Below the pieces are notes generated by a model. It did no database searches. It had not been told where the DNA came from and worked only from the letters and a program-made list of their open reading frames with translations. Position numbers and translations under genes: made by a program. Positions 11,175-49,858 of a DNA stretch of 64,000 bases are shown here, one piece after another. Source of the DNA: a virus (taxonomy: Duplodnaviria; Heunggongvirae; Uroviricota; Caudoviricetes); IMG/VR virus record IMGVR_UViG_3300044591_001876, positions 11,134 through 75,133 of that record; one strand, given 5' to 3'. Every line of letters begins with the position of its first letter. Positions within the stretch are counted from its first letter, which is position 1.

Positions 11175-11182
11175 TATAAATA
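11175..11182 (+). promoter_or_regulatory. T4-type late promoter (TATAAATA, exact consensus)
   Basis: TATAAATA 36 nt upstream of ATG 11219 of the giant ORF. Confidence 0.6.
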
Positions 11183-11218
11183 CTCGTAAGAAGAAAGCAC
11201 ACATAGGTCTGGGTAATT

Positions 11219-14200
11219 ATGGCTCTTACAAGACTTGATAATCTGTATTCAAGCAAAACTGGTAAATATCTATATGTTTCTCCAGACGATTTTAATGCTA
11301 CTGATGAATTAGATAATAGAGGTAATTCTCCTCTACGTCCATTCAAAACAATTCAAAGAGCCTTTATTGAAGTAGCAAGATATTCGTATCTTCCTGGTCA
11401 AGATAACGATAGATTTGACCAGTTTAGCATCATGTTGATGCCTGGCGATCACTACATTGACAACAGACCTGGATTAATTGAAGTTGATCGTGGCGAAAAG
11501 CAACGCTATTTTGATGCCAAAGAACTTATTATTGCAAATAGACAAGAAATTATTGATAGAGCATTTGGCGAAATTGCCATCGAATATGATGAAGCTGCCT
11601 GGGGTACTGATTGGGTAGTTCCTGGCGATCCTATTAATAGCGATTTGAACAGAGGATTTGACTCATACCGTCTGATTCAAAAAAATCGTCAAGAAATTGT
11701 TGACGGTGCTTTTGCTCAAATTGCTATTACACACCCGACTTTTACAAATCCAAATTCAGCTAAATGCCAGCGTGATATTGGATATTTTGTTGATGCAGTA
11801 TCTTTGGATGTATTGCTAGGTGGTGGAAATCGTTATACACGTAAGTTTTTACAAAATTATTTTAATAATTCTGGAACTGCTTGGATCGATAATGGTCTTC
11901 AGGGAGAAGAAGCAGAATCTACTACAGCATTTAATAAAGCCAGAGATTTGATGAAGGCTGCTGTAGCGAATCAGCTAACATTTAAAGATCTGACACTCAC
12001 TATTGATCCTCTTACTGGTTCGAATACAACTGTTAATTCATGTGCTAACATTCAAACTACAATTGCCACTCTTACAGCAATTGTCACAGATGTAATTAAT
12101 GATGGCAATTTAGAATATCTTCCTGAAGAGACTATCGAAACAATCGGTCTTGGTGAATCTAAGTGTAAAAGAGATATTGGTTATATTGTTGATGCTGTTG
12201 CTGCTGACCTCGCTAATGGCGGAAATGCCAATATTGTGGCTGCTGCCAAATCATATTTTACAAAAGAAGGTCTTCCTATTTCGAATGGTCTTTTAGGAGA
12301 AGAAGCACAATCTGTTATTGCTTTTAATGCTGCTAAAGTAATGATGAAAAAAGCTGTAACCAATCAGCTTTATTCTAAAGATCTGAATATTCTTTCTGGT
12401 CCAGCTGTTTATAATTCTGGTGGTCCAGTAGTTCCAAATCTACCATCAGGTAATGTTGCCACTTGTGTCGATGTTCAAGCAACTATTGATACTTTAATCG
12501 GTATTATAACGACTGCTATTTCTGATGGAGACATCACAAGTCTTGCTAATGTTCAAATTACAGGAGACATTCCTGTATTTAATTACAACAGAGCACTTGA
12601 AGAGTGGCAAGACAACTCAATTCTTGATCTTAGCAATCCAGATAACGTTCTATACAAATTTAACGCTTCTACTGGTGGTGCTATCGTTCCTAGAGGTTGT
12701 TCTCTAATCGGTTATGATCTTCGTAGAACAATTGTACGTCCTCTCTATGTACCCGATCCTGCTGACGGAACACAAGAAAGAACTTCGATCTTTAATCTAA
12801 CTGGTGGTTGCTATATTTGGCAGTTTACTATTAAAGATGGTGATCTTTCTGAGAATTCTCCTTTATATGACAACAACGATAAAGTAGGTAAGGTTTATTT
12901 CCAAAAGGGTAACAATACTCAATTAGCAATTCCTGAGTATTCTCACCACAAGATTACTATCATGACTTATGCCGATCTAGATGATCTAGATCTGTATTAC
13001 AATAAAGTCGCTACTGCTTTCGCTTTATTCCAACCAACAATTGATGATGGTGATTTAGAAGCATTACCACAAGAAAATAGAATTGTTGGTCCTCTTTCTG
13101 ACACTAGAAGTATTGTAAATATTCGTCTTAAGCAGTCAACAAATCCATCCAGAACTACGATTGTAGCTACTACTAAAATTGCTCATGGATATTTTGTAAA
13201 CCAGTATGTTGCTATTGTAGATAACGGTCTTAATGATCTACTAAATGGTACTTTTAAAGTAACTGCTGTTGATCAAGAAGATCCAAGAATATTTGAGTAT
13301 CAAGTTGCTACTACACCAGCAATTTTAGGTCTTGATATTAATGAAAACGGATACAGCAATTCAACAACTCCATCATTAAATCTTAGCGCCAGAGCACAAG
13401 CAGAAATTGACTCCGTAGAATCTGCTTCGCCATACGTATTCAACTGCTCGATTAGATCCACCTGGGGTCAGTGTGGTATGTGGGCGGATGGATCTAAGGC
13501 AACTGGATTCAAGTCGATGGTTGTTGCCCAGTATACGGGTGTTTCTCTACAAAGAGATGATAGAGCGTTTATTCGCTATGATGAATTTAGTAATACTTGG
13601 AATCAGGCGTCACTTGTAGATGCTTTTGCTACAATTCCTTATCACAGCAAAGGTGATGCTTACTGGAAAGATGACTGGAGAAACTTCCACATTCGTGCTT
13701 CAGATGATGCTTTCATTCAGTGTGTTTCGGTATTCGCTGTAGGCTTCTTTGATCACTTCTTAATGGAATCTGGTGGTGACATGTCCATCACCAACTCCAA
13801 CTCCAACTTCGGTAACACTTCACTTCATGCTGTAGGATTTAAAGGATTCTCATTCAACCAGGATAAGGGTGGTTATATTACTGATATTATTCCTGTAAAG
13901 GAGATTGATGACAGTGCTTTTAACGAAGTAGAACTAAAGTACTATTCAATTGCTTTACAAGTATCAAAAGATGTAGCCAATCAAACCAAACTTTATTATG
14001 GTAGCGATGATTCCTATGATCCATTTGATAGACCATCTACATCAATTAGTGGATATAGACTAGGTGCTAAAACAGATGAAAAGATTTATCTTAAGTTAAA
14101 ATCACCTGCCGGAACTACGGAAGAATACTTCTCTTCAGTTACACCAAACGGATTTAAAAAGTATACTGTTTCGTTAGAAACTTTAAATCCAGATGGTATT

Positions 14201-17200
14201 TCAATTGATAATAGAGCACAGGATGCTTCAAATATCATTGAAACTAATAAAACATTCATTCAGCAAGAAGCATACGGATATATCACACAAAAGTATCCAA
14301 ATCTTCTAACAAATACTAACATCGAAATTTCTACATGTGAAAGAGACATTGGTTATTTTGTTGATGCTGTAATTCAAGATTTACGTCTTGGTGGCAATAT
14401 TAACACTATTCAAGCTGCCGAAGGTTATTATATTGGCGGTCAATTAGCATACATTTCTAATGAATTAAACGAAACAATAGAAGCTCTTGATTACGTCAAG
14501 AATCTTTGTATTTCGACGATGAGAAATTATGATTATCTCATCAGAAATTGTGTAACGACACAGGGTTCTGCTATTGTCGATATTGGTGACACAAGTGGAA
14601 TCTTGATTGGAATGAAAGTAACCCAGTATGATTACAATCTAATTAATTTTACTGATGGTAAATTGAATCCTGGTGCTACACCAGTACAGTTAAACCCAGT
14701 TATTCCTAATAACGTATATGTTAAGAAAATTATTGATGCTAACAGAATTGAGCTAGGTAATCTTGGCAGTAAATTAGAACAAGGTTTGTCTGTCCCAGCA
14801 AACTTAAATTCTTCTTCTGCTTATCTATACTTTGAATTACCAAAAACAACATCAATTGTAGATAGCGATTCTAATCTTGTTGGTTCTTGGGCAGCGACTC
14901 CAGCTAAAAAAGATAATACTTTAATACAAGATACCAGCACTTGGGGTCCTACTGCTGGCAATGGCTATCCTGAGTGTTCTGGTGTTGCTACTATTATTCA
15001 GGAGTATTTTGTAAATATATTCTTGATTCTTAATCAAGGTTTAACTCCTCTTGGCGGTAAAGAAGTTGATGCTTCCAATTTAATTCTTGCTAATAAGAAT
15101 TTAATCGCTGAGGAAGCAGTTGATAGAATGCTTATTGCTAACCCAGGATTTGTAGTTCCTGGTGGCAATCAACAATGTACTGATGACGTTAAATTAATTA
15201 TTGATGCTATTGCTTATAATATTAAGTACGGCGGTAATAGTAGAGTTTATGATGCTGCTAGAGTATATGTACTTCAGCCTAATTTACTTAATGGAGAAAG
15301 AACTCAGGCTGTTCAAGTTTATACTCAAGTAAGAGATCTTGCTATCCAGGCAATGAGAAATCAGGTGATTACTATTCAAGGTGATCACAATTTAACTCAG
15401 TACATCGATAATACTGTTATTGGTGATCTTTCTGGTCAAGCTGGAGTCTATGATTCAGCTAATGATTGTGCTGATATTGCTAGCACAATTACTACATTTA
15501 ATGGTATTATTACTGGAGCTATTGGTACTGACGCTGATCCAGGTGATCTTGTTGGAATTACCAGAACTGAACCAGAATTTAATAATGTAACTCGTGTAGA
15601 ACCAGTTGTCGATACTGCTAATCTTGCTTCTAGAGCAACACTATTCACTGTTAATGTTGGTGGTGGTACTTCAAACCCACACAATTTTGAAACAGGAACT
15701 GCTGTTCGTCTTGTTCCTAAAGCAAGAGAAAGTACGAATCCAGATAAGAGAGTTATTCGTCTCCCAAGAGGATTCCAAACTAACACAGTTTATTATGTAA
15801 TTGCTCCAGGAAGAAGCACTTCACCAGAAGATTATTCTGATGAAACAACATATCCAAACACGTTTGGTCCTGATGAATCTACCAAGATCATGCTTGCTAG
15901 GACTAAAGAAAATGCTGCTGCTGGTATTTACATCTATTCGTCAGAAACAGATTCTGTAGACGAAGAAGTAGAAATTGAACTTCAGCAGTATGTTCTTGAT
16001 GAAACTTATGATCTACATCAATACCTATGTAACTTTATTACTGGTCAAACTGATGTAATTCAGACAGATGTACCACACGTTTTTGATGTCCCTTCTACAT
16101 TAAATACAGTACATAAAGTTTTCTTTAGATCATTTGGTGATCCTAGTGAATCAGAATTGCCACAAATTACTAGCGGTGGCATAACAGAGCCAATTGATAC
16201 TAACACATATTACTATGCTAGATTTGTTACACCAAAAACTTTCGCTCTTTTCTATACTCCAACTGAAGCAATTTCTGGTACTCCTAGAATCACTTTTACT
16301 GCTGGATTTGGTAAGAATTTCTATGTATTCTCGGATAAGAGAGAAAGCCCAGTAAAATTTGATGCTACTTTAGTAAATGCTGATACTACTACTGGTCAAT
16401 GGTATATTAACACCAAGAATGAAATTAGCAATCAATTTAATATTATTAGAAGAATTCAAGAACTTGGCGATACCTTAAAAGATGCTAGAAGTAAGAACAC
16501 TTTCTACAGAAGACTTAGAGATAATAGAACAGCTCAAGACAGAATTTATCGTTTAAGATATGTAATTCCTGAGTATGCTCAAGGTGTTCGTGATCCTCTC
16601 AATGGATTTGTTCTTAAAGCAAGAACTGACGAAACAAGAAGACTTCTCCCACAAAAAATTGTTTTAGCTCCTGTTGCTGTTGGATCTCCTAATCTTGCTT
16701 ATTTTGAAATTCAATTACAGCAACCAACTGGCGGAACAATCGCCCAGCAATTAGGATTACCTAAATCTCAGTTAGATCTTAATTTTGAATATGATCCATA
16801 CAACATTAATCAAGTAAAAGTAATTGATAGTGATAAAACACAAAGTAAAGTATCATTTAGCATTCAATCTGCTAGACAAGTTAATGTAAATGGAACAAAT
16901 CTTATTGAGTTAACTGTATTTGATTACGGAATTACCAACGATCAGTTGAGAAATGAGAAATTCACTACGGTCAAAATTGATGCTCCTCAAGGGGGAACTT
17001 TCCGATTTAATACATTAAACAGTGTATCAAATAATAGAATTACTTGGTCTGGTTTTTCTGCTGGTTCTGGCTACCTACAAGGTTACTTTAATGTAGATGG
17101 AACTGATGAACATTACTTAATCATCAAAAATATTGATGATAATAAGAGAATTGAGTATAATTCACTTATTGATACTGTATTCACTCAACCTGTTCTTGAC

Positions 17201-20200
17201 ATTGATGGAGAACCAGTATTTGATGGTGATGGAAATGCCGTATTGATTTTTGCTTTTCTACAAGCCAAAGAAAACAGCGTAGGAAGTGTAAACAATTCAT
17301 TAAGTAAATCTGATAGAAAAGATTATCTATACAGCATTAAGGATTCTAATGTTCTTACAATAACTCCTGGTGATATTATTGAAGATGATGACAGCACTCA
17401 ATATAGAGTTATATCAGTTGAGGATGCTGGTCAAATTGAAGATTCTTTCTACATCTTTGATATTGATGAAATCCAAAGACGTATTCCTAATCAGCAAGCT
17501 GGTATTTACTACCTAACTTGCCTTAAAGGTAATATCTCGCCATTCCCAACTGGACCTGGAGTTGGTACTAACTTTAGAAACTTTAAGTTTAGTCAGCCAA
17601 TTTCTCAACTGTATCCATTAGATTATAAGAATGATCCTCTGTGGTTCCAGGTAAGAGCAGATGGTTCTAGAGATACTTCTATTGTAGACGTTCCTCCAAC
17701 CATTTGTGCTGCTGATAACTTTGTTCATGGTTTAGTAACAACTAACGATTCTAAGAACAGTGAAACTAAAGAAGTTGTTTTAGATTTTATTAATAATCCT
17801 GCTTTAAACAGATATGATTACGTAGTTAATCCTATTGCTGCTCAAGCAGGAAATGCTACTTCTGGTTCTGAGGATAGATTAATTCCTATCTCTGGTGATT
17901 CTCCATACCCAACTGAAGGTAGACTATATGTAGAACTTCGTAGACCATCTATTGCTCGTTCTGGCAACCACACCTTCGAATATCTAGGTTTTGGTCCTGG
18001 TAACTACTCAACTGGTTTCCCACTAAGACAAGAAGTTGTTCTTTCCGATATTCAGGATTTCTATGCTCAATCTAAGAAAGAAGATGGTGGTATTGTATTC
18101 TATACTGGTCTAAACTCCAACGGTGACCTTTATATTGGTAACCGTAAAATTAATGCTATTACTGGTGAAGAGACATATTTAGAAAGGGCTCAATTAATTT
18201 CATCCGATGATGAAACAGATGATTTGGGTGGTCTAGTTACTACGTTCGAACTCCCTGTTGTATTTGAAAAAGATATTACTGTAGATGGCAATGCTAACTT
18301 TAATAATCCAGTAACAATTAATGTAGAACCATCTGAACCATTTGCTCTAACTGTTGTATCTAATTTAAATTCTTCCGCTGGTGAAGATGTAACATTAGAT
18401 AGTGCCACGTTTGCTTTAAGTGACATTCCTTCGGAAGGTAATATTGTATTGAGTAAAAATAATATTTACTCTGCCATATTTACTTTAAATCCACGAGGTA
18501 ACACTGCTTTAAGTGGTCAAAATTACAGCATTAGAACTCATGTAAACCAAACAAACGGCAATATTCCTTCCAATTACACTCCAAATCAAGAATTAAGCAC
18601 TCTTGGATTGAATGTAACATTTGGATCTGCTTCTCCTACTCCAGGTGATATTCTTCTAAAAGGAGCCCAAGTAGACAAAACTGGATCACTTGGATGGATT
18701 TACAGTAATTTCTATGATTTAATTACATCCAATGTATTCACTGTAACTGCTTTAGGTTCAAATATTGTTCAGTTTACACTTCAGGTAGGCGTAACAAATA
18801 GTCAAATTGGTATTACTCAAGGTTCTAAATTAAAAATTGGTGGATTTACTGGAAGATATGCTAATTTAAATGGTCTTAGAACTGTTGGCACTGTCACCAC
18901 AAATACATTCCAAGTAATCTCGCCGTTTATTATTTCCACCAGTGTCGATGATCCTACTATCATTCCAGCTGGATGGAGTATTGAAATTTCTAGAAATTCC
19001 TGGAAAGAATTTGGTGTTCTTGGAGCGGAAACTTTAAGAACAAATACACAAAATTATGGAGATTTTAAACTTGGTATTAATACTCTTGCTAGAGCAAAAC
19101 ATGGCACTGACGGAGATCAATTAACTGGTTTTGTTTCTCAAGCAGTCGATCCTAGAGCTAATCTAGATATCGTTGGTAATGCCTTTATTAGTGGCAGAAC
19201 TTTAAGTACTTCTCCAAACAACTTTATTAACAATCCTCTATTATCAAATAGAACATTTAATAAAGTTGATCATGCTTTTATTGTTGGATTTGATCCAAAA
19301 ACAAATGCTCCTCAAGATGAAGTTGTTCTAAGAGTTGCTTCCACAACTATAGGAACTGCTTCAAATGCTGGTGGAAGAATTGGTATCAACACCACGTTAT
19401 CTGAGTTGGATAGAAACTTTGTTGTTAAAGGTAACGCTAGAATTACTAATGATCTTAAGTTAGAATCTAATCTAGCAATTAACGGTGGATCATTAACAAC
19501 TACAAGTACATCGTTTAATATTCTTGATACTATTGCCACAGATGTAAACGCTTTCAGTGTTGCTGAAGAGTTAAACATTGCTAATATTACTAATGAAAAT
19601 CAATTAATCAACATTGGTAATGTATCAAACACTCAAGAATTTAACATTGGTAGATTTGTTCAAACTAGCCAGTTGTGGATTCATAGTAACTCTACTAATT
19701 CTTTAGTCGATATTGGTACTGTAAGTGAATCTAGTGCTAATACTAGTATTATTAGAATGGGTGGTGCTTTTGGAAAACTTAGTAACGTAGAAAGCTTATT
19801 TAAAATCAGGAACCGTTATACTGAAATTGATGGTAATCTATCAATCGGTACTTACAATCCACCAGGAACAGGTTTCTCGGAATTCCAAACTAATTCTAGA
19901 GAAGTTGAAATGTTCAGCAGAAACATTTCAACACTTGATTTTGCTACATCAGTAACAAGATTAAACATTGGTGGTGCTGGTGGTTTCACCACAATCAATA
20001 ATACTCTGGTAGTGAAAAATGCTGCTGAGGTTAATGGTGATATTACATTAATTGGTGGATTGAACGCTGGAGCGTTTACGGTAAGGAGAGGTTCTTTCGG
20101 AACTCCAACTACTATACATGTAAGAGGAAATATTGATCTCCTAAACGTCGATATTTTCAAAAAAGTAATCATCCAAAGAACTATTGATACTCAAGGATTA

Positions 20201-34258: not shown

Positions 34259-35200
34259 ATGGGAAAATTAAATTTTAATCCTGACGATTTTGTATTTGAA
34301 AAGTTGCCTTCTCCTGATGAGAAAAAAACAATTCTTGAGTATGATGCAAAAAACAGATTAATTCTTCTAAGAACTAAAGACGAAACTGGTAATTATGTTT
34401 ACAACAGTGTAGTAATTAGTTCGGCAATCAATGAAAATATTTTAAAAAATATTCCTGATGAGTGGTCAAATGACAACGATAGAATTATTTTGTTCGCCAT
34501 CTACGAAAATGGTGATTATATAATTGAAAAGGAAAAATTGAAATATGATTTTTCTACAAAAAATACTAGATGGATTCAATATACATCTGACTTCTTAACT
34601 ATAGAACAAGCAAAAGAATTATATAATATTCTGAATGCTGCTATCACTATCGACACGGAAGTAAAAAATTATAATGCTACTAAAGAGTATTTGGAATTAT
34701 CTAAAACTGCTTATTATCTTTCCGAATTCAATAAAAAAAATGATCATTTTATTGAGGAATTGTTGAGAGGAACTGATCATAAGGTTCTCCCAGATGCTCC
34801 AGAACTTTTTGAAAATGAAAAGGAAATGTGGATTACGTGGAGAAATAAACTTCGTGATTTGGATAAAATCCGTGATGATTTTGAAACTGATTTAGATTAT
34901 ATAATTTGGATTGAGGAAATGAAATGGCCCATAAGACCAGATCAATACTATTCAAAGTATTCTAATTTAGAAGAGGAATATTTAAGTACTCCAGATCAAT
35001 TTGTAAATAATCCACAATTTTTGAATCTTAAATCATCTTCCGATTCAACAATGGAAGTTACAAAATTTGCTGAAATGATTAGAACGTATGAAGTATCTGG
35101 GTTTGAAATTAACCCAACAACATCAAAACTTGTGGCCAAATATAATTTAATTAAAGATATCGAAGAGTTTAAAACTATTAAAATGAAGGAGATGGAATGA
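34259..35200 (+). CDS. Hypothetical protein (313 aa), late-expressed
   Basis: ORF with late promoter; K/E/D/N-rich; no recognisable motif. Confidence 0.5.
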   Translation: MGKLNFNPDDFVFEKLPSPDEKKTILEYDAKNRLILLRTKDETGNYVYNSVVISSAINENILKNIPDEWSNDNDRIILFAIYENGDYIIEKEKLKYDFSTKNTRWIQYTSDFLTIEQAKELYNILNAAITIDTEVKNYNATKEYLELSKTAYYLSEFNKKNDHFIEELLRGTDHKVLPDAPELFENEKEMWITWRNKLRDLDKIRDDFETDLDYIIWIEEMKWPIRPDQYYSKYSNLEEEYLSTPDQFVNNPQFLNLKSSSDSTMEVTKFAEMIRTYEVSGFEINPTTSKLVAKYNLIKDIEEFKTIKMKEME

Positions 35201-35586
35201 TGATAACTAGAGATTTTTTAGAGTGGATTGAATACTATACAGAAACTCAGAAAAAAACGATGATGATTCTGAGAACTGTTGGACCAGACAATGTAACGGA
35301 CACGGAAAAAGCAAATCAAATTTATTCAGCATATTATCAAAATCTACAGCCAGAATCACCTGAGTTATTTGACAAACTATTGTATAATGAATTTACATTT
35401 GTGGAATTTGATACCGAAGAGCAAGCATATCTATTTGCCACTGAGAATTTTCCAATGAATCGAGATGGCGATCCTGATTATTTTGTTCAGGTTGTGGTAT
35501 TTTCGAACGGTAATTTGGCTTACTCGAACGATAATCTACGATCATTTTCTGACAGAATACCGCCCCCAGTTCAGCCACCTGCTTAA
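35197..35586 (+). CDS. Hypothetical protein (129 aa)
   Basis: ATGA overlap with upstream gene. Confidence 0.5.
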   Translation: MMITRDFLEWIEYYTETQKKTMMILRTVGPDNVTDTEKANQIYSAYYQNLQPESPELFDKLLYNEFTFVEFDTEEQAYLFATENFPMNRDGDPDYFVQVVVFSNGNLAYSNDNLRSFSDRIPPPVQPPA

Positions 35587-35593
35587 TTGGCAC

Positions 35594-35629
35594 AAGGGGG
35601 TTGACTGCCCTCTTTTTTTGTGCCATACT
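35594..35629 (+). terminator. Composite element: G5/C-run hairpin + T7 terminator whose loop is the -35 TTGACT of a sigma70-like promoter
   Basis: cacaaGGGGG-TTGACTG-CCCTC-TTTTTTT, then 17-nt spacer to CATACT (35624-35629). Confidence 0.55.
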
Positions 35630-35651
35630 ATCTTTATTGAAACGCTTCGCC

Positions 35652-36878
35652 ATGAAACTCCGCCCTCAACAAGAGCAGAGCATTGCCGCCATGATCAAGC
35701 ACCAGTTTGGGCAGATCATTGCTCCCACTGGAGCTGGCAAGACTCTCATCATGATTTATGATGCTATTCGTCGAATGAACGAATCTAGCAGACCACTGAC
35801 CATTGTTGTGTGTGCTCCTCGTATTCTCCTGGCAGAGCAGCTGTCCAGCGAGTTTCTTGAGCACATTGATTTTGCCAATATTCTTCACGTTCATAGCGGC
35901 GAGACTCATCACAAAAGCACCACCAAGCCCGATGTGATTGCTGCTTGGGATGAAGTTGTAGATAATCATAAACTCATTTTTACTACCTATAATTCTCTTC
36001 GTCGTGTTAACGAGTCAGAAATCAATATCGATGTTGCTTATTTTGATGAAGCCCACAATAGCACTCGTGTAGATTTCTTTGACTCTGTGGCATCCTGTAA
36101 TGCTACCAACTATTATTATTTCACTGCTACTCCTAAGCATCGTCGTTCTTCGCTTGGCACTGGCATGAACAACAGCATGGTATTCGGTCAGATTATTTCT
36201 AACATTTCAGCTCCAGAACTTGTAGAGCAAGGCAATATTCTTCGTCCTACCATTCAGATTCATGAAGTTGATTATGAGCGTCAGAAAGGTCTCACTGCTG
36301 CTGACAACGACGCCAGCACCCTGATCGACATGATCGACGGACTGGACTCTAGGAACGCCCAGAAGGTGCTTGTGGCTGCTCCCAGCAGCAAGATCCTCTG
36401 GCAAATGCTGTCGAGCACCAAGGTGCTCTCAGACCTCGCTGAGCGAGGCTTTGATGTTCTTCATATTACCAGCAAGTTTGGTGCTTATGTCAACCAAACC
36501 AAAGTTGATCGTGAGACTTTCTTCGACACTTTCAATTCTTGGGGTCAAGATCCTAACCGTAAGTTTATTATCTTCCACTACAGTATTCTGTCCGAAGGCA
36601 TCAACGTTCATGGTCTGACTCACACCATCTTGCTTCGTAACCTGCCGATTGTGGAAATGGCACAGACCATCGGGCGTGTGATCCGTCTTAACAAAGACGA
36701 CGCTAGGGACGTTGAGTGTGGTAAAATCGAGGCAGGAAACTTCGCTATGTACCGAAAGCCCACTGGGTTCGTCACCGTTCCCGTCTTCAAGAACTACGGC
36801 AAGAAAACCCAGCGTCGTCTGGAAGAAGTCGTAAACACCATTTTTGTTCAAGGTCAACCCGCCATTGATGTACGATGA
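35652..36878 (+). CDS. SF2 DEAH-box helicase (UvsW/ResIII-like core)
   Basis: Start taken at ATG 35652 (track uses TTG 35601); motif I APTGAGKT, II FDEAHNS, III FTATP, VI QTIGRVIR (same as T4 UvsW motif VI); GC ~50-60%. Confidence 0.7.
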   Translation: MKLRPQQEQSIAAMIKHQFGQIIAPTGAGKTLIMIYDAIRRMNESSRPLTIVVCAPRILLAEQLSSEFLEHIDFANILHVHSGETHHKSTTKPDVIAAWDEVVDNHKLIFTTYNSLRRVNESEINIDVAYFDEAHNSTRVDFFDSVASCNATNYYYFTATPKHRRSSLGTGMNNSMVFGQIISNISAPELVEQGNILRPTIQIHEVDYERQKGLTAADNDASTLIDMIDGLDSRNAQKVLVAAPSSKILWQMLSSTKVLSDLAERGFDVLHITSKFGAYVNQTKVDRETFFDTFNSWGQDPNRKFIIFHYSILSEGINVHGLTHTILLRNLPIVEMAQTIGRVIRLNKDDARDVECGKIEAGNFAMYRKPTGFVTVPVFKNYGKKTQRRLEEVVNTIFVQGQPAIDVR

Positions 36879-37861
36879 CACTCAAACGATCAATTGATTA
36901 CAAGGATCAACTACTCACTTTCAAACAACTTGAGGGTGTAGTTGCTCGTAAAGACATTATCACTGGTCCTGCTGAAGCTATTGTTGCTCAAGCAAAGATC
37001 AATGATTTTTCCTGGGAATCTGCTGTTCAAACATATTCGAAGTTCACGAAAGAAGAACAAGCAGACATTCGTAAGTCTGGACAGCAATTGCTGGCTGGAT
37101 ACTATGATCCCCTCACAAATACCATAGGTTCTCCTGGTTCTAACCCCACAGAAGCCAGGGGTATCATGATTACCCAAATGTATCTCAATCAGGATCGTTG
37201 CTGTGCTTATAGTGGCGACGGTCCATATCATATTTTAGATTTTCAGGTAGAACACATTGATCCTATTGCTGGTGATCATCCAGAAAATATTGTACTTGTC
37301 CTTGCTAACATCAACGAGAACAAGAAGCAATCTGCTCAAAATTTTATTCAACGTTGTGAACGTCGATATGAAATGGGAGAGCTTGAATATACTATCTGGT
37401 ATAAGTCTATGAAAGACGCTGTGAAGCGTAATCATAAGATGAAAGCGGAGATTCTTTCTATGAGTGAGCATGAATTGTGTCAGTATTGGCTCACTCGTAC
37501 CACACCCAAATACGACAAATATGTGTGGCGTAACATTGGGATGTCTTCGCTGAGTGAATTCCGTATCCTCAAGGGTTCTGGAATCAAGCGAGCTGGTGGC
37601 ACTCAGGGGAACTACGTGGACATCCTCAACACTATCGCTGCCGAGCACCTGTTCGGAAATCCTGACGTAGCACGAGACATCTACGAGTGTGCTAGAATGT
37701 TCAGGAGCAATTTTCTCAATGGACGGATTCAGCGTGAGGAATATGCCATGTTTAACATGGAGATTATAGAGTTGTCAGATCACATCAATCCAGGTTATAA
37801 TAGAGAAAAGTTTTACAACAACATCGTTCGGAACAACTATTCATGGCCTCATCTAAACTGA
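36875..37861 (+). CDS. HNH-motif nuclease domain protein (328 aa)
   Basis: CCAYSGDGPYHILDFQVEHIDPIAGDHPENIVLVLANINENKKQS = C..Y.G....h...vEHI.P...G..h..N....N...K HNH signature; ATGA overlap with helicase stop. Confidence 0.6.
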   Translation: MTLKRSIDYKDQLLTFKQLEGVVARKDIITGPAEAIVAQAKINDFSWESAVQTYSKFTKEEQADIRKSGQQLLAGYYDPLTNTIGSPGSNPTEARGIMITQMYLNQDRCCAYSGDGPYHILDFQVEHIDPIAGDHPENIVLVLANINENKKQSAQNFIQRCERRYEMGELEYTIWYKSMKDAVKRNHKMKAEILSMSEHELCQYWLTRTTPKYDKYVWRNIGMSSLSEFRILKGSGIKRAGGTQGNYVDILNTIAAEHLFGNPDVARDIYECARMFRSNFLNGRIQREEYAMFNMEIIELSDHINPGYNREKFYNNIVRNNYSWPHLN

Positions 37862-38700
37862 CCAACCATTCCCTGTACCGCTACGCTGGCGGTAAAAATA
37901 GGATGAAAAATGAGATTATCGACATTATCAAGGATGTTTATCCTGGTGTCGATTATGTTGTTTCTCCTTTTCTTGGCGGCGGTTCGGTTGAGATGCTGCT
38001 TGCCTCTCAAGGCATTCAAGTACAGGCATACGATATTTTTCGTTCCCTTGCCGATTTTTGGGAAATACTGACTACCGAAGGTGGCAACCGATTGGCGGAT
38101 GAAGTCACTAAACATTATCCGTTGATTGATAGTGATCATTATAAATCTTTTCTGCCATTAATGGATAGTGAAGATAAATTTACCCGTGCCTGGGCATTCT
38201 ATATTGCTATCAAGGGATCTTATTCTGGAAAGATTGGATGCTCCACTGTACGCTCTAGGGCAGAATTTCGCTTGGTTGGTGTGGAAAAGCTTAGGAAATT
38301 CAATAATCCCAACTTTAGTTTCAACTATGGCAGTTGTTTCGACACCATTCCCCAGCATGTAGATGATTTCATGTATTTGGATCCACCGTACTACGAAACT
38401 GTCAGCCATTATTATGGTAAGGATGGTGAACTACATAAGACGTTCGACCATGAAGAGTTTGCCGAGATTCTTAAATCTCATCGTGGCGGCTTTGTAATGT
38501 CCTACGATAACAGCGAAAGTGTTCAAAACCTTTATAAGGATTGGACTGAGTTTCGATACTTGACTTTCCCGTATCAAATGTCTGGCACTAAGCGGTATGA
38601 GAAAACGGAACTCATCATCGTTAAATATCCAGAAAATCCCAAACCAAAACCCAAAAGTATACTAGAAACGTTTTTAACACAGGAGAATGTAAATGTATGA
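37843..38700 (+). CDS. dam: Dam-like N6-adenine DNA methyltransferase (D12 class)
   Basis: N-terminal YRYAGGK (Dam xWAGGK), FLGGGSV (FxGxG SAM motif), YLDPPY (DPPY catalytic motif); 19-nt overlap with HNH gene. Confidence 0.75.
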   Translation: MASSKLTNHSLYRYAGGKNRMKNEIIDIIKDVYPGVDYVVSPFLGGGSVEMLLASQGIQVQAYDIFRSLADFWEILTTEGGNRLADEVTKHYPLIDSDHYKSFLPLMDSEDKFTRAWAFYIAIKGSYSGKIGCSTVRSRAEFRLVGVEKLRKFNNPNFSFNYGSCFDTIPQHVDDFMYLDPPYYETVSHYYGKDGELHKTFDHEEFAEILKSHRGGFVMSYDNSESVQNLYKDWTEFRYLTFPYQMSGTKRYEKTELIIVKYPENPKPKPKSILETFLTQENVNV

Positions 38701-38893
38701 AACCCTCACAGAATTCGAACGAGCACTCGCTCGTTTTGGTGATAAAGTTGGACTCATTGCCGGACTTGAAATTGCGGATAAAATCTCTCCAGAAGATGCT
38801 TATCAACAAATCAAGGAACTTTACAAAGAACTTAAGAGCCTCCGTAAACAAGAAAAATCTAGTTGGCAACAACTCGACTACGACAACAAGTAG
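38693..38893 (+). CDS. Small helical acidic/basic protein (66 aa), fourth gene of the cassette
   Basis: ATGTATGA overlap with dam stop. Confidence 0.45.
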   Translation: MYETLTEFERALARFGDKVGLIAGLEIADKISPEDAYQQIKELYKELKSLRKQEKSSWQQLDYDNK

Positions 38894-39035
38894 AGTTTGT
38901 TCACGTTGTGAAATTGAAAAACCATTAGATAAAGATCATTATCAAGTTGTAAAATCTTTTAGGTCGGGATTTTCTTATTATTGTAATGATTGCTCTATCG
39001 AAATGAGAAAGACCTCACCAGGAAATAAGAAATAA
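38886..39035 (+). pseudogene. Start-less remnant of an Endo VII-like nuclease N-terminal Zn ribbon
   Basis: VCSRCEIEKPLDKDHYQVVKSFRSGFSYYCNDCS parallels VCRYCKKEKPLTKDFYHRNHSTQNGFRYECKEC of ORF 10527; no ATG, no catalytic domain, frame differs from the 66-aa ORF. Confidence 0.4.
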
Positions 39036-39053
39036 ATAGTAAAAAACATTCAA

Positions 39054-39485
39054 ATGACGCTTATAGAAGCCTTACAAAAATTAAAATCTTTTTCCGAAGA
39101 TTTGTATTCTATTATTAATGGATACAATTATACTGGATATGATAAATTTTTGGAAAAGTATTCTTTGTCTATTTCAACTCAATTAAAAGCTATACTTCGT
39201 TCCATAGAAGTTAATGATCAGTTTACATTTAAATATGCTATCACCAATATTAGTAGTAAATTAAACAAAATTTATTATATTGGAGAATTGAATCAAATTT
39301 TTGTATCTAATGATATAAAATATTTTGATATGAATCAAGCTATGGAATGGTGTGATGATAATTGGTCTAATATGTCTGAATATATTAACGACATAGAAAT
39401 AGAAATTATTACGTGTATGGAAAATTATGAAAACATTTTTCAATACATGAATCAAAAATTTGCTGCTCGTTTTTACAATAGATAA
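39054..39485 (+). CDS. Hypothetical protein (143 aa), AT-rich
   Basis: ORF; AT-rich codon usage unlike neighbours. Confidence 0.5.
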   Translation: MTLIEALQKLKSFSEDLYSIINGYNYTGYDKFLEKYSLSISTQLKAILRSIEVNDQFTFKYAITNISSKLNKIYYIGELNQIFVSNDIKYFDMNQAMEWCDDNWSNMSEYINDIEIEIITCMENYENIFQYMNQKFAARFYNR

Positions 39486-39486
39486 C

Positions 39487-39747
39487 ATGACTTTATACTA
39501 CTACGCCATATTTGCTTTCTTTGCTATCATTGCTTATATGATGGTAGTAGATAAAAACGTCGTCATATTTATTGACTTGATGTTTCGCTATGCTGGGGTT
39601 CAACTCAAGCGAGCATGGTGGATTGTCAGATTTCACCCAATCAACCCAATCCCACGCTGGACTCTCAAATGGAGAGTCGAGAGGATGACCAGGCAACTGG
39701 AAAAAGATCTTAAGATCAACACAAAGGGCTTGACGGACCCCGACTGA
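39487..39747 (+). CDS. Small membrane protein
   Basis: ATG 39487; N-terminal hydrophobic segment LYYYAIFAFFAIIAYMMVV. Confidence 0.4.
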   Translation: MTLYYYAIFAFFAIIAYMMVVDKNVVIFIDLMFRYAGVQLKRAWWIVRFHPINPIPRWTLKWRVERMTRQLEKDLKINTKGLTDPD

Positions 39748-45469: not shown

Positions 45470-45872
45470 TGTTCGTCACCGAAGACAATATGTAGCAACG
45501 AAACCCCGTAACTGGGATGCTTGGAATGCTGGTCTGGTAAATGATACACCTAATGTAGCAGTACAAAAAGTATTTCAAGCACTTCGTAATGATCAGGAAG
45601 TTGACTTGATTATTGTTTCTGGTCGCTCAGATGACTATAAAGAACAAACTATCAAGTGGTTGACTGACAACGAAATCTTCTACGATGAGATTTATATGAG
45701 AAAGTATAAGGATCATCGTGATGATGCGGTTGTCAAAAATGAGATTGCGGATGAGATTGAGAAGACACACAAAATTCTTGGTGTGTTTGATGATCGCCAG
45801 CGTGTTGTCAACATGTGGATTGAGCGTGGCATCTGGGTGTTTGATGTTGGACAAGGCAAGGGACAGTTTTGA
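45411..45872 (+). CDS. Polynucleotide 3'-phosphatase (HAD family), T4 Pnkp C-domain-like, separate overlapping-frame gene
   Basis: DLDGT HAD motif I (FVFDLDGTICDV) at aa 10-14; ATG 45411 (track uses TTG 45405); 59-nt overlap with kinase gene in another frame. Confidence 0.65.
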   Translation: MSNVELKKCFVFDLDGTICDVRHRRQYVATKPRNWDAWNAGLVNDTPNVAVQKVFQALRNDQEVDLIIVSGRSDDYKEQTIKWLTDNEIFYDEIYMRKYKDHRDDAVVKNEIADEIEKTHKILGVFDDRQRVVNMWIERGIWVFDVGQGKGQF

Positions 45873-45907
45873 AACTGACACAAGAGGGTTGACACCCTCT
45901 TTTTTAT
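45873..45907 (+). terminator. Composite terminator/promoter: AGAGGG-TTGACA-CCCTCT-TTTTTAT hairpin with -35 in loop, 17-nt spacer, TATACT
   Basis: 6-bp perfect stem, loop = TTGACA (45879-45884), T-run, -10 TATACT 45902-45907. Confidence 0.6.
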
Positions 45908-45940
45908 GGTCTATACTGACTTCAGTTCAAACAAAAAAAC

Positions 45941-46141
45941 ATGTCCAGTTCTTCCTCTTCCTCCAGCGGTATCGGTTTCCCTGGTCTGCTGACTGTTCTG
46001 TTTGTTGGTCTGAAACTTACTGGCCACATTACTTGGCCATGGGTGTGGGTGCTGTCGCCGTTGTGGATTAGTGCTCTTATCTTTCTTTGTGCTGTTGCCA
46101 CTATCGTGATTGTTGGTGTTATTACTGGTGCTTTCAAATGA
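45941..46141 (+). CDS. Small membrane protein (66 aa) with poly-Ser N-terminus
   Basis: MSSSSSSSSGIGFPGLLTVLFVGLKL... two hydrophobic helices. Confidence 0.45.
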   Translation: MSSSSSSSSGIGFPGLLTVLFVGLKLTGHITWPWVWVLSPLWISALIFLCAVATIVIVGVITGAFK

Positions 46142-46317
46142 TTGAAGCAATTGAAACCGCAATCTACGAAGGAAAAATCCTCTGTGGATTTTCTACTCGT
46201 GAAGAATGTAAAACCTTTATCAAAGAAAAATACCCAGATATTGACCCCTTTGATGTTGAGTTGAAAACTCAATATCTTACTTATAACAAACCTTATAATG
46301 GTGGAGTGCCCCGATGA
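46138..46317 (+). CDS. Hypothetical protein (59 aa)
   Basis: ATGA overlap. Confidence 0.4.
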   Translation: MIEAIETAIYEGKILCGFSTREECKTFIKEKYPDIDPFDVELKTQYLTYNKPYNGGVPR

Positions 46318-46456
46318 GAAGTTTTTTTGAGGAATATGTTGCTATTCCACTTGGCATTCTGATGTTGATTTTTATTGCTCCAACTGCGGTGCTTGGTGGA
46401 CTGAAACTTGCCGCAACTTTAGTTGATATGACTCCTGCTTGTGAGGTGAGCAAATG
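46314..46456 (+). CDS. Small membrane protein (47 aa)
   Basis: ATGA overlap; hydrophobic IPLGILMLIFIAPTAVLGGL. Confidence 0.3.
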
Positions 46457-49274: not shown

Positions 49275-49474
49275 TTGAACTCCTCAAAACTCCAATAAGA
49301 TATGTGATAGATACTCAAAATAAAAAAATTTCTCTTCATCGAGAGGAAGACTTTGAAGTATTATCTTTCAATACCACTGATGAGTTTATACATGCTCTAA
49401 CATCTATTCGCAAAACAAACAACATTATCTGGTATGTAATTCCACCAGGATTGATTGAGGGTCCTCACAAATGA
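49271..49474 (+). CDS. Hypothetical protein (67 aa)
   Basis: ATGA overlap. Confidence 0.4.
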   Translation: MIELLKTPIRYVIDTQNKKISLHREEDFEVLSFNTTDEFIHALTSIRKTNNIIWYVIPPGLIEGPHK

Positions 49475-49650
49475 ACAAAGTTAAATTCGTAACGATCGCC
49501 CGCACAATTGATCCTAAGACACGTATTCATTATCTTGATGCTGTTGATGAGAATGGATACCACTGGTCTGCGCAAATGGAAACTGGTGTAGAGCCTTGGA
49601 TTACATACAAAGAAATTTGGAAAAAAGACCCACAGCAACCTTATGACTGA
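49471..49650 (+). CDS. Hypothetical protein (59 aa)
   Basis: ATGA overlap. Confidence 0.3.
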   Translation: MNKVKFVTIARTIDPKTRIHYLDAVDENGYHWSAQMETGVEPWITYKEIWKKDPQQPYD

Positions 49651-49858
49651 CCTCGAAAAACTATTAGAAAAACATAGTAGACGCCCACCATCGTTGTGGA
49701 ATGTGATGAGACATGAGTTGGGATACTCTATTGATATGTGCGATGAGATTGTGTCTGCTGTTGAAGAATGGTTGCCACCAGAACATCCCACGAATGACTA
49801 TCAATGGAATAAATGTGTTAGAATGATTCGTGAGAAACTTTGGGATCAACCAGAATGA
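49643..49858 (+). CDS. Hypothetical protein (71 aa)
   Basis: ORF. Confidence 0.4.
   Translation: MTDLEKLLEKHSRRPPSLWNVMRHELGYSIDMCDEIVSAVEEWLPPEHPTNDYQWNKCVRMIREKLWDQPE

What the first reader, a model, noticed from the sequence alone, without database searches (positions are those of the whole stretch)
35594..38893. GC-rich, translationally coupled helicase - HNH nuclease - Dam methyltransferase - small protein cassette
Four genes are chained by ATGA/overlapping stop-starts. They are an SF2 DEAH helicase (motifs I, II, III, VI), a 328-aa protein with a clear HNH nuclease motif, a D12-class N6A methyltransferase (xAGGK, FxGxG, DPPY) and a 66-aa protein. The block is ~50-60% GC against ~35% in the adjacent fiber genes. 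It is bounded upstream by a terminator/promoter hairpin and downstream by a decayed Endo VII-like remnant. Together these signs suggest a horizontally acquired island. A helicase, nuclease and methylase together fit a restriction-modification-like, exclusion or anti-restriction module rather than three unrelated housekeeping genes. The helicase shares the QTIGRV(I/L)R motif VI with T4 UvsW, so a plain recombination helicase is the alternative reading.
Basis: partly seen in the sequence, partly recalled or inferred. Interest (0 to 1): 0.75.

Follow-up and report, generated by a model that had tools for sequence, protein, structure and literature searches.

The report
Phage nuclease-methylase pair purging YGCR sites
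Two of the four flagged genes, an unnamed HNH nuclease and a methyltransferase, form a restriction-modification-like insert in a T4-like cyanophage, and every genome carrying this nuclease family has lost about 90% of its YGCR sites, which predicts an apparently undescribed cutting specificity.

Summary
The four overlapping ORFs exist, but they are not one acquired island, and the block is 43% GC, not 50-60%. The helicase and the 66-aa DUF7219 gene are conserved cyanomyovirus neighbours: about 430 phage records have the helicase, and close relatives join the two genes by a 7-nt spacer. The real insert is 36875-38700. It holds a 328-aa HNH nuclease of a rare family, named "hypothetical protein" in every public copy, and a D12-family methyltransferase. 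The methyltransferase's closest characterised relative is M.CbeI, an m4C enzyme acting on GGCC, not Dam.

The pair occurs in at least three helicase clades interspersed with pair-less relatives. It also occurs without the helicase, in a viral contig's row of restriction-modification pairs.

New result: carriers have 0.78 YGCR (TGCA, CGCA/TGCG, CGCG) sites per kb, against 6.1 per kb in non-carriers. The purge includes synonymous changes. It recurs in two unrelated genomic contexts of the nuclease family, one of which lacks any nearby methyltransferase.

Best reading, confidence about 0.6: a phage-borne type II-like system whose nuclease cuts YGCR. It would attack host or rival-phage DNA, with self-protection by methylation plus site purging. 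A conserved internal promoter-like element precedes the methyltransferase. There is no biochemical evidence yet.

The parts
35594..35629 (+). Terminator-like hairpin with T-run (35594-35614) overlapping a promoter-like TTGACT-17-CATACT (35601-35629), upstream of the helicase. It probably marks the transcription-unit boundary for helicase plus nuclease.
   Evidence: Consensus scan; sequence. Pattern match only; function not shown.
35649..36878 (+). SF2 DEAH helicase: a conserved cyanomyovirus gene ('T4-like GC 36'). It is a neighbour of the insert, not part of it. Its stop codon overlaps the nuclease ATG.
   Evidence: Pfam ResIII, DEAD and Helicase_C; phrog_16 at 224 bits; 428 full-length phage hits; synteny in Sf-FR1, Syn1 and S-PM2; present without the pair in L055-L067; T4 UvsW only 34 bits.
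36875..37861 (+). 328-aa HNH-superfamily nuclease of a rare, unnamed, phage-only family: the predicted YGCR-specific endonuclease. Catalytic core is residues 110-149 (nt 37202-37321). A second invariant block, W218-Y247, has unknown role.
   Evidence: Family of about 42 clusters, no Pfam domain, all 'hypothetical protein'; invariant HNH residues; pLDDT 90.2 model with beta123-127, beta139-143, alpha144-150; only 73 proteins at E<=1e-3 among 1.84 billion representatives; 8 of 16 family members give weak HNH_4 hits; no relatives found in 185,579 species genomes; presence tracks the YGCR purge.
37772..37801 (+). Sigma-70-type promoter-like element TTGTCA-N18-TATAAT inside the 3' end of the nuclease gene, 41 nt upstream of the methyltransferase ATG. 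Inferred to be an independent promoter for the methyltransferase.
   Evidence: Best promoter match in the region, 11 of 12; both hexamers invariant in 12 of 12 carriers; TTGTCA in 20 of 20 and TATAAT in 18 of 20; highest third-codon-position identity in the gene (0.80 against a mean of 0.64, SD 0.05; catalytic core 0.67). Function inferred, not shown.
37843..38700 (+). 285-aa D12-family (alpha-class, DPPY) DNA methyltransferase, partner of the nuclease. It is not a Dam orthologue. The modified base is unknown (m4C or m6A), and the inferred target is YGCR.
   Evidence: Pfam D12 67.8 bits; best PADLOC hit is a Type II MTase, 115.7 bits; Dam models below cutoff; closest solved relative is M.CbeI (7M6B), E=1.3e-20, reported as an m4C GGCC enzyme with DPPY (PMC3425538; PMC8616854); adjacent to the nuclease in all informative carrier loci.
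38693..38893 (+). 66-aa DUF7219 protein: a downstream neighbour that directly follows the helicase in close relatives lacking the insert. Not part of the insert.
   Evidence: Pfam DUF7219 72.7 bits; 51% identical to the gene after the Sf-FR1 helicase; follows the helicase directly in L054-L065.
38697..39035 (+). 112-aa ORF in another frame overlapping the DUF7219 gene. Its C-terminal CxxC...CxxC part weakly resembles the endonuclease VII / HNH zinc region. It is a neighbour, conserved whether or not the insert is present.
   Evidence: PHROG 1035, 2255 and 4723 at E about 2e-4; tblastn conservation in carriers and non-carriers. Status as a gene or a remnant is unresolved.

Best explanation
Positions 36875-38700 hold a two-gene, restriction-modification-like insert in the spacer between two conserved cyanomyovirus genes.

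The 328-aa protein is a sequence-specific HNH endonuclease. Its inferred target is the degenerate 4-bp palindrome YGCR (TGCA, CGCA/TGCG, CGCG).

The adjacent D12-family methyltransferase is inferred to modify the same sites on phage DNA. The inner cytosine is a plausible target, as in its characterised relatives M.CbeI and DmtB, but adenine is not excluded.

The nuclease is co-transcribed and translationally coupled with the upstream helicase. The methyltransferase appears to have its own conserved sigma-70-type promoter inside the nuclease gene.

During infection the nuclease would cut unprotected DNA. Host DNA, or co-infecting phages that lack the system and carry about one YGCR per 160 bp, would be targets. 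The carrier genome is protected twice over: by methylation and by having purged about 90% of its own sites.

SHOWN: gene content, insertion boundaries, family conservation, patchy distribution, recurrence of the pair outside the helicase context, and the association of the nuclease family with YGCR depletion.

INFERRED: that the nuclease itself recognises YGCR, that the methyltransferase shares this target, the modified base, promoter function, and the biological role.
For: (1) Insert boundaries. In L055 the helicase stop is followed by TTAACAA and then the DUF7219 ATG; in the window the pair replaces exactly that spacer.

(2) Active nuclease. HNH catalytic residues are invariant across 24 sequences down to 42% identity and in the distant subfamily. 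The model shows a beta-beta-alpha topology. Remote relatives pass the Pfam HNH cutoff.

(3) Pairing. Nuclease followed by methyltransferase in all informative carrier loci, with overlapping or abutting reading frames at most junctions. The same pair (nuclease 30% identical, E=1e-29; methyltransferase 65% identical) sits in viral contig L015/L076 directly before an MvaI/BcnI-family nuclease with an N4/N6 methyltransferase, and a weak MunI-like ORF with a D12 methyltransferase.

(4) YGCR purge.
- The window has 35 YGCR sites in 64 kb.
- TGCA O/E has a median of 0.10 in 28 carriers and 0.65 in 14 non-carriers, with complete separation and Mann-Whitney p=1.8e-7.
- An unbiased k-mer contrast ranks CGCA/TGCG, TGCA and CGCG first.
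- In the NGCN table only YGCR differs: TGCA 0.10 vs 0.81, CGCA/TGCG 0.09 vs 0.93, CGCG 0.05 vs 0.23. RGCY is equal in both groups, and RGCR/YGCY are at or above 1.

(5) Phylogenetic control. Carriers form at least three helicase clades interspersed with non-carriers. Non-carriers with 83-89% identical helicases are not purged, while carriers with 56-62% identical helicases are. Both types occur in the same metagenomes.

(6) DNA-level selection. Carrier helicase genes have 0-1 YGCR sites and close non-carriers have 9-19. None of 33 aligned sites is kept in the window, and 16 differ only synonymously.

(7) Independent contexts. Contigs L072-L074 carry a solitary nuclease homologue and show 1.0 YGCR/kb against 15.9 RGCY/kb; TGCA and CGCA are the lowest of all 4-mers in L072. 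L076 has 1.16 YGCR/kb.

(8) Methyltransferase without nuclease. L013 has a 58% identical orthologue and is not YGCR-purged (11.2/kb).

(9) Methyltransferase relatives act on the inner C of an NGCN site (PMC3425538).

(10) Conserved internal promoter-like element.
Against: - There is no biochemical evidence; the specificity is inferred only from genome composition.
- A 10-20-fold purge is stronger than expected if the methyltransferase protected the sites efficiently.
- An N6-adenine enzyme could not protect CGCG, and the modified base is unknown.
- The association could in principle come from a YGCR-specific restriction system in the hosts of carrier phages, since hosts are unknown.
- The independent contexts are short contigs (2.6-13 kb) with small counts. 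L075, with a 34% identical homologue, shows no clear purge.
- CGCG is only mildly depleted in L072 (5/13).
- L054 lacks the pair at this locus yet is partly purged; I explain this as a mosaic, but the pair could equally sit elsewhere in that genome.
- The window protein itself is below Pfam's HNH threshold, and no solved structure matches the whole fold.
Confidence: 0.6

Rival explanations
1. Host-driven purge with a mobile passenger. The hosts of carrier phages have a YGCR-cutting restriction system, so these phages purge YGCR and carry a protective methyltransferase. The HNH protein is a free-standing homing endonuclease that mobilises the cassette into the helicase/DUF7219 spacer, not a restriction enzyme.
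For: The insert sits precisely in an intergenic spacer between conserved genes, and its distribution among close relatives is patchy. Both are typical of free-standing homing endonuclease genes in T4-like phages (established knowledge). A 10-20-fold purge is typical of phages escaping host restriction. Mosaic L054 shows recombination between purged and unpurged genomes.
Against: - Contigs with a solitary nuclease and no nearby methyltransferase are also purged.
- L013, with a methyltransferase orthologue but no nuclease, is not YGCR-purged.
- If the methyltransferase protected against a host enzyme, the purge would be redundant.
- The nuclease is conserved with invariant catalytic and non-catalytic blocks over 42-93% identity and always stays with its methyltransferase, unlike the usual decay of homing endonuclease genes.
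- The pair sits in a row of restriction-modification cassettes in L076.
- Carriers and non-carriers share metagenomes.
- No YGCR enzyme was found in the literature search.
Confidence: 0.17
2. Methylation-driven purge. The methyltransferase marks YGCR, and host methylation-dependent (type IV) nucleases select against marked sites. The HNH protein has an unrelated role, for example repair, packaging or a virion-associated function.
For: Distant structural relatives are annotated as virion structural proteins in S-TIM5 and S-CBWM1. Type IV restriction of methylated phage DNA is well established (general knowledge).
Against: The purge occurs in L072-L074, where no methyltransferase is found within 8 kb. 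The purge follows the nuclease and not the methyltransferase clade (L013). Keeping a methyltransferase that is harmful to the phage across at least three clades at 72-96% identity would be hard to explain.
Confidence: 0.08
3. One reading: all four genes form one acquired helicase-nuclease-methylase-small-protein machine (type I/III-like or a defence helicase-nuclease system).
For: The four genes overlap at start and stop codons. The helicase has weak partial hits to defence helicases (PbeA 46.8 bits, dnd restriction enzyme 30.9 bits). L013 also places a methyltransferase orthologue two genes after a helicase.
Against: - The helicase occurs in 428 phage records without the pair, and the DUF7219 gene follows it directly in Sf-FR1 and close relatives.
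- The pair occurs without a helicase.
- The defence-family scores are far below family cutoffs (30.9 against 600).
- The helicase's GC content is intrinsic to the gene.
Confidence: 0.04

Closest known systems
Chlorovirus restriction-modification systems, e.g. R.CviJI/M.CviJI (RGCY; site cited from PMC3681635). Their role in host DNA degradation and the virion packaging of the nucleases are as described in bioRxiv 10.1101/2019.12.21.884833.
   Same: A lytic virus carries a nuclease-methyltransferase pair with a very short, degenerate, frequently occurring site with a central GC. The pair is used offensively against non-self DNA. YGCR is the exact purine/pyrimidine mirror of CviJI's RGCY.
   Different: The host is a bacterium and the virus is a T4-like phage. 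The nuclease belongs to an unnamed HNH family with no detectable match to annotated restriction enzymes. The methyltransferase is D12-family. The carrier genome purges its own sites about 10-fold; I have not checked whether chloroviruses do this. No activity data exist here.
CbeI/M.CbeI of Caldicellulosiruptor bescii and DmtB of Anabaena (alpha-class, DPPY-containing m4C methyltransferases acting on GGCC; PMC3425538; structure 7M6B)
   Same: These are the closest characterised relatives of the window methyltransferase (E=1.3e-20 over residues 11-263). All share the D12 fold, FxGxG and DPPY. All were annotated as adenine methylases. Their target is a 4-bp site with a central GC.
   Different: The HMMER alignment is gapped and imperfect (percent identity not computed). 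The inferred target is YGCR, not GGCC. The base modified here is unknown. The partner nuclease was not compared with CbeI.
Marseilleviridae restriction-modification system (mel_015/mel_016; bioRxiv 10.1101/2019.12.21.884833)
   Same: A virus-borne nuclease plus methyltransferase, present in some clades and absent in close relatives, and proposed to exclude co-infecting viruses that lack it. The nuclease has no recognisable domain in standard searches.
   Different: That system is GATC-specific with a CviAI-like nuclease, and it occurs in a eukaryotic virus. Here carriers are polyphyletic on the helicase tree and show an extreme site purge.
HNH-type type II restriction endonucleases (KpnI, MnlI, Hpy99I, PacI; recalled from memory, not tested here) and the Cas9 HNH domain
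   Same: A beta-beta-alpha-metal catalytic core with a His general base and Asn ligands. The weak profile matches are to HNH_4 and to a Cas9 model.
   Different: There is no whole-protein similarity to any solved structure. The N- and C-terminal domains are novel. The core has E-H in place of the usual D-H, with no CxxC zinc sites.
Free-standing homing endonucleases of T4-like phages (mobE / seg type; established knowledge)
   Same: Located between conserved genes, with presence/absence polymorphism among close relatives.
   Different: This nuclease is always paired with a methyltransferase, is strongly conserved, recurs in a restriction-modification row, and is associated with a genome-wide purge of a 4-bp motif and not with a single long target.

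Membership tests
HNH (beta-beta-alpha-metal) nuclease superfamily | Catalytic His at the end of beta-strand 1, preceded by an acidic residue | tested here: met
   E126-H127 is invariant in 24 family members. The His is invariant, with D/E before it, in the distant subfamily.
HNH (beta-beta-alpha-metal) nuclease superfamily | Asn/His metal ligands on strand 2 and the helix, with beta-beta-alpha topology | tested here: met
   N138, N145, N147 and N149 are invariant. The AlphaFold2 model (pLDDT 90.2) has beta123-127, beta139-143 and alpha144-150.
HNH (beta-beta-alpha-metal) nuclease superfamily | Score above the curated Pfam threshold | tested here: inconclusive
   Window protein: HNH_4 16.3 bits against a cutoff of 22. 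Remote relative P0185: HNH 23.1 bits against 21.4. 8 of 16 members give sub-threshold HNH_4 hits. No significant PDB fold match for the whole chain.
Type II restriction-modification system | Adjacent nuclease and methyltransferase genes that travel as a unit | tested here: met
   The two are adjacent in all informative carrier loci. The same pair occurs in another viral contig among other restriction-modification pairs.
Type II restriction-modification system | Methyltransferase with SAM-binding and catalytic motifs | tested here: met
   Pfam D12 67.8 bits. FLGGG and DPPY are present. The best PADLOC hit is a Type II MTase at 115.7 bits.
Type II restriction-modification system | Sequence-specific cleavage by the nuclease at a defined site | not testable with these tools
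   Indirect evidence only: an approximately 10-fold YGCR purge tracks the nuclease family in three genomic contexts.
Type II restriction-modification system | The methyltransferase modifies the same site and blocks cleavage | not testable with these tools
   Inferred from adjacency and from relatives that modify the inner C of GGCC. The solitary nucleases in L072-L074 show that the methyltransferase is not always present nearby.
Dam (GATC N6-adenine methyltransferase) | Score above the curated family cutoff / orthology to T4 or E. coli Dam | tested here: not met
   TIGR00571: 53.6 bits against a cutoff of 114.85. NF008152: 18 against 441. T4 Dam E=0.054 and E. coli Dam E=0.89. Only about 31% identical to annotated cyanophage Dam genes, which lie elsewhere in those genomes.
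T4 UvsW helicase (for the upstream helicase) | Orthologue-level similarity over the full length | tested here: not met
   T4 UvsW (2OCA) scores only 33.9 bits, E=1.5e-7. The protein matches phrog_16 and the cyanophage cluster 'T4-like GC 36'.
Free-standing homing endonuclease | Intergenic position with patchy presence among close relatives | tested here: met
Free-standing homing endonuclease | Cleaves a long target in the endonuclease-less allele near its insertion site | not testable with these tools
   Not addressed. The genome-wide purge of a 4-bp motif and the constant methyltransferase partner argue for a short, frequent target instead.

The most novel reading that the evidence does not exclude
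This would be a previously unrecognised family of phage 'offensive' endonucleases with a new 3-bp-equivalent specificity (YGCR, the mirror of CviJI's RGCY). Self-protection would rest mainly on evolutionary elimination of the target from the phage genome. Methylation would be an accessory layer that some lineages (L072-L074) dispense with. The system would let carrier cyanophages shred host DNA and the genomes of closely related co-infecting phages, and it would drive the observed carrier/non-carrier polymorphism within the same waters.
Probability: 0.35. Interest if true: 0.8.

Novelty: new variant of a known kind. Interest (0 to 1): 0.62.

Why it matters
- **A testable specificity.** If confirmed, an unannotated 'hypothetical protein' family gains a function and a concrete predicted specificity. 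YGCR is absent from the frequent-cutter prototypes listed in 2013 (PMC3681635) and from the text-searchable literature. Such an enzyme could be useful for near-random DNA fragmentation.
- **Phage biology.** It would show that T4-like cyanophages, major agents of cyanobacterial mortality, carry restriction-modification-like weapons. It would also show that a phage genome can be reshaped about 10-fold at a 4-bp motif by a gene it carries.
- **A detection method.** Motif depletion contrasted between carriers and close non-carriers can assign specificities to unknown nucleases directly from metagenomes.
- **An annotation warning.** D12 'DNA adenine methylase' or 'Dam' labels in phage genomes can hide enzymes whose nearest characterised relatives methylate cytosine.

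Tried and rejected
- **Megablast** of 35000-39500 against 50,697 phage records: no match. The 328-aa protein has no close homologue in any deposited phage genome, only a 31% partial hit in S-TIM5-type phages.
- **BFVD** gave only larger uncharacterised cyanophage proteins.
- **Cellular genomes.** Two scans of 185,579 species genomes with close and distant family patterns found no relative. The scans are pattern-limited, so absence is not proven.
- **Alignment A5** was too diverse for a metagenome scan. A6 returned only five loci.
- **L013 neighbours.** I tested whether the 170-aa and 551-aa proteins in L013 are related to the nuclease; they are not.
- **PADLOC** gave no credible defence-system membership for the helicase or the nuclease.
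- **GC-island reading** rejected.
- **GATC/Dam reading** rejected. GATC is not depleted (O/E 0.89), and the Dam models fall below cutoff.
- **Codon or amino-acid bias** as the cause of the purge rejected. TGCT, TGCC, AGCA and GGCA are over-represented, so neither TGC nor GCA is avoided as such, and half of the lost helicase sites are synonymous.
- **Environment** as a confounder considered. Carriers and non-carriers come from the same metagenomes (3300008108 and 3300010354).
- **Literature** searches for a YGCR enzyme or for cyanophage restriction-site avoidance found nothing relevant.

Full report
**1. What is at the coordinates**

The window is a T4-like cyanomyovirus. Its helicase has full-length homologues in 428 phage records, almost all Synechococcus or Prochlorococcus myoviruses, and a 1,822-aa fibre gene and a tail-chaperone-like gene lie upstream.

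Four same-strand ORFs occupy 35649-38893, with 4-, 19- and 8-nt overlaps:
- An SF2 DEAH helicase (ResIII 69 bits, DEAD 55 bits, Helicase_C 29 bits).
- A 328-aa protein with only a sub-threshold HNH_4 hit (16.3 bits against a cutoff of 22).
- A D12-family methyltransferase (67.8 bits).
- A 66-aa DUF7219 protein (72.7 bits).

An upstream hairpin with a T-run and a promoter-like site exist as consensus matches.

The GC claim is wrong. The block is 43.3% GC against 38.1% for the window, and 300-nt peaks reach 50% at most. Most of the excess is in the helicase gene (46.7%). That gene is just as GC-rich (45-48%) in relatives lacking the other genes, so the excess is intrinsic to a conserved gene. 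The nuclease and methyltransferase genes are 41-42% GC.

**2. The unit is two genes, not four**

In Sf-FR1, Syn1 and S-PM2 the helicase ('T4-like GC 36') is followed directly by a roughly 60-aa gene. The Sf-FR1 copy is 51% identical to the window's DUF7219 protein.

Helicase-anchored viral contigs with 83-89% identical helicases (L055-L065, L067) lack both middle genes. In L055 the helicase stop is followed by TTAACAA and then the DUF7219 ATG. In the window the two genes at 36875-38700 replace exactly that spacer.

On a helicase tree, carriers fall into at least three clades interspersed with non-carriers. In every informative carrier locus the order chaperone-like, p129, helicase, nuclease, methyltransferase is kept. 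In the distant group the methyltransferase is 72-79% identical to the window's, the nuclease 43-47% and the helicase 56-62%.

**3. The 328-aa protein**

It belongs to a family of about 42 clusters of roughly 330 aa, with no Pfam domain. Every public copy is named 'hypothetical protein'.

An exhaustive profile search of 1.84 billion representatives found only 73 proteins at E<=1e-3. Two pattern-limited scans of 185,579 bacterial and archaeal species genomes found none.

The motif C110-A-Y…G116…D122-F-Q-V-E126-H127…G133-D…N138…N145-x-N147-E-N149 is invariant. The His and an Asn remain invariant in the distant subfamily.

An AlphaFold2 model (pLDDT 90.2) places these residues on beta123-127, beta139-143 and alpha144-150, a beta-beta-alpha-metal arrangement. 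Some remote relatives pass the Pfam HNH cutoff, and 8 of 16 members give weak HNH_4 hits.

The rest of the fold has no solved relative. In the viral structure library it matches only larger cyanophage proteins, including S-TIM5 and S-CBWM1 'virion structural proteins'. The S-TIM5 homologue sits beside a C5-cytosine methyltransferase.

**4. The methyltransferase is not Dam**

Dam models score far below their cutoffs. T4 Dam and E. coli Dam are barely detectable (E=0.054 and 0.89). The one strong solved match is 7M6B (E=1.3e-20).

7M6B is M.CbeI. It was annotated as a D12 adenine methylase but was shown to make N4-methylcytosine in GGCC despite its DPPY motif. Its cyanobacterial homologue DmtB methylates the inner C of GGCC (PMC3425538; PMC8616854). 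The base modified by the window enzyme therefore cannot be read from the motif.

**5. The pair recurs as a unit without the helicase**

In viral contig L015/L016/L076, a 348-aa homologue of the nuclease (30% identity over 294 aa, E=1e-29, with the canonical 'VDH') directly precedes a 65%-identical methyltransferase. Next come an MvaI/BcnI-family nuclease (63 bits) with an N4/N6 methyltransferase, and then a weak MunI-like ORF with another D12 methyltransferase. L071, a TARA contig, repeats the pair.

**6. New observation: a YGCR purge that tracks the nuclease**

The window has 13 TGCA where 248 are expected.
- Across loci, TGCA O/E has a median of 0.10 (range 0-0.24) in 28 carriers and 0.65 (0.25-0.77) in 14 non-carriers. 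Separation is complete (Mann-Whitney p=1.8e-7; these points are not phylogenetically independent).
- An unbiased contrast of all 4-, 5- and 6-mers ranks CGCA/TGCG, TGCA and CGCG first.
- With first-order Markov expectations, only YGCR differs among the 16 NGCN words: TGCA 0.10 vs 0.81, CGCA/TGCG 0.09 vs 0.93, CGCG 0.05 vs 0.23. RGCY words are equally depleted in both groups (0.23-0.47). RGCR and YGCY are at or above expectation, so neither TGC nor GCA is avoided in itself.
- Densities are 0.78 YGCR per kb in carriers, 0.55 in the window and 6.13 in non-carriers.
- Carrier helicase genes hold 0-1 sites and close non-carriers hold 9-19. Of 33 aligned sites the window keeps none, and 16 differ only synonymously.

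**7. Controls**

- *Phylogeny.* Purging follows the pair and not helicase relatedness.
- *Environment.* Carriers and non-carriers come from the same metagenomes.
- *Independent contexts.* Contigs L072-L074 carry a solitary homologue (27-29% identical to the window protein), with no recognisable methyltransferase within 8 kb. They have 1.0 YGCR per kb against 15.9 RGCY per kb, and TGCA and CGCA are the two lowest 4-mers in L072. L076 has 1.16 YGCR per kb.
- *Converse case.* L013/L014 carry a 58%-identical methyltransferase but no nuclease homologue. They have normal YGCR (11.2 per kb) but an almost complete RGCY purge: AGCT 0/36, AGCC/GGCT 1/38.
- *Exception.* L054 lacks the pair at this locus and is a mosaic, with 3.65 YGCR per kb left of nt 9050 and 0.12 per kb to the right.

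**8. Regulation**

The best promoter-like match in the region, TTGTCA-N18-TATAAT at 37772-37801, lies inside the nuclease gene, 41 nt upstream of the methyltransferase ATG. Both hexamers are invariant at the nucleotide level among nucleases that are only 43-47% identical as proteins. The 13-codon window starting at 37772 has the highest third-position conservation in the gene: 0.80, against a mean of 0.64 (SD 0.05) and 0.67 for the catalytic core. I infer an independent promoter for the methyltransferase, while the nuclease is coupled to the helicase by the ATGA overlap.

**9. Interpretation**

The most economical reading is a phage-borne type II-like restriction-modification module.
- The HNH nuclease recognises YGCR.
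- The methyltransferase modifies the same sites. The inner C is attractive because it is common to all four variants and is what the characterised relatives modify. However, m6A on one strand could protect everything except CGCG.
- Carrier genomes have additionally purged the site.

The role may be host DNA degradation, as described for chloroviruses, or exclusion of co-infecting relatives, as proposed for Marseilleviridae. Non-carriers in the same waters carry about one site per 160 bp, and the L054 mosaic shows that carrier-like and non-carrier-like genomes recombine.

None of this has been shown biochemically. The main rival is a host-imposed purge with the cassette as a passenger, or with the HNH protein as a homing endonuclease. 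It is disfavoured by the purged solitary-nuclease contigs and by the unpurged L013, which has the methyltransferase only. It is not excluded, because hosts are unknown and the independent contigs are short.

**10. Novelty**

Virus-borne restriction-modification systems and HNH restriction enzymes are both known kinds. What appears new:
- The nuclease family itself.
- The predicted YGCR specificity. No mention was found, and it is not among the frequent-cutter prototypes listed in PMC3681635.
- Its presence in T4-like cyanophages as an indel polymorphism.
- The strength of the self-purge, including lineages with no nearby methyltransferase.

Noticed in passing
whole window; loci L001-L070: RGCY words are depleted in all cyanomyovirus loci whether or not they carry the pair (AGCT O/E about 0.45, AGCC/GGCT 0.28, GGCC 0.25). 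CCGG (7/42), CGCG (1/19) and GCGC (11/28) are also low in the window. This suggests long-standing pressure from RGCY-type (CviJI-like) and other GC-rich 4-bp restriction activities in cyanobacterial hosts.
   Followed up: partly
L013:3090-5837 and L014: A different phage has the order helicase (43% identical), a 170-aa ORF, a 59-aa ORF, then a methyltransferase 58% identical to the window's. Its genome is almost free of RGCY (AGCT 0/36, AGCC+GGCT 1/38, GGCC 2/10) while YGCR is normal. The 170-aa protein has no detectable family and may be an unrecognised RGCY-specific nuclease.
   Followed up: partly
L054 (IMGVR_UViG_3300044609_000595), nt 1-17224: Mosaic contig. There is no nuclease-methyltransferase pair after the helicase, yet the 8 kb downstream of nt 9050 has 1 YGCR site (0.12 per kb) against 33 sites (3.65 per kb) upstream. 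This points to recombination between a purged and an unpurged genome, or to recent loss or relocation of the pair.
   Followed up: partly
L076 / L015 / L016 (IMGVR_UViG_3300002231_000332), L015:3937-9105: A viral contig carries three consecutive nuclease-methyltransferase pairs: the HNH family with a D12 methyltransferase; an MvaI/BcnI-like nuclease with an N4/N6 methyltransferase; and a weak MunI-like ORF with a D12 methyltransferase. GGCC (0/31) and ACGT (2/23) are purged in addition to YGCR.
   Followed up: partly
window 38697-39035 (+), overlapping 38693-38893 in another frame: A 112-aa ORF overlaps the DUF7219 gene out of frame. Its C-terminal CxxC…CxxC segment weakly matches endonuclease VII / HNH PHROGs (E about 2e-4). 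It is conserved in relatives with and without the insert. Whether it is a small zinc-ribbon gene with an internal start or a remnant is unresolved.
   Followed up: partly
window 39054-39485 (+): The real compositional outlier nearby is this 143-aa ORF, at 23.8% GC (GC3 19%). It has no family match and was detected by tblastn only in the window's closest relatives among the loci surveyed (L017/L049 100% identical; L020, L021, L050 and L051 45-47%). It looks more like a recent acquisition than the flagged block does.
   Followed up: no
BFVD hits; L012:3431-5089 (S-TIM5): Larger cyanophage proteins of 500-970 aa share the fold of the 328-aa nuclease at E from 2e-9 to 2e-5. They are annotated 'virion structural protein' (S-TIM5, S-CBWM1) or 'cytitidyltransferase' (ACG-2014f). 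The S-TIM5 copy lies beside a C5-cytosine methyltransferase, yet the S-TIM5 locus shows no YGCR purge. This hints that relatives of the nuclease may be packaged in virions.
   Followed up: partly
window 49409-49739 and 45725-46412: The 35 residual YGCR sites in the window are not evenly spread. Five fall within 49409-49739 and five within 45725-46412. These could be recently acquired or otherwise protected segments.
   Followed up: no
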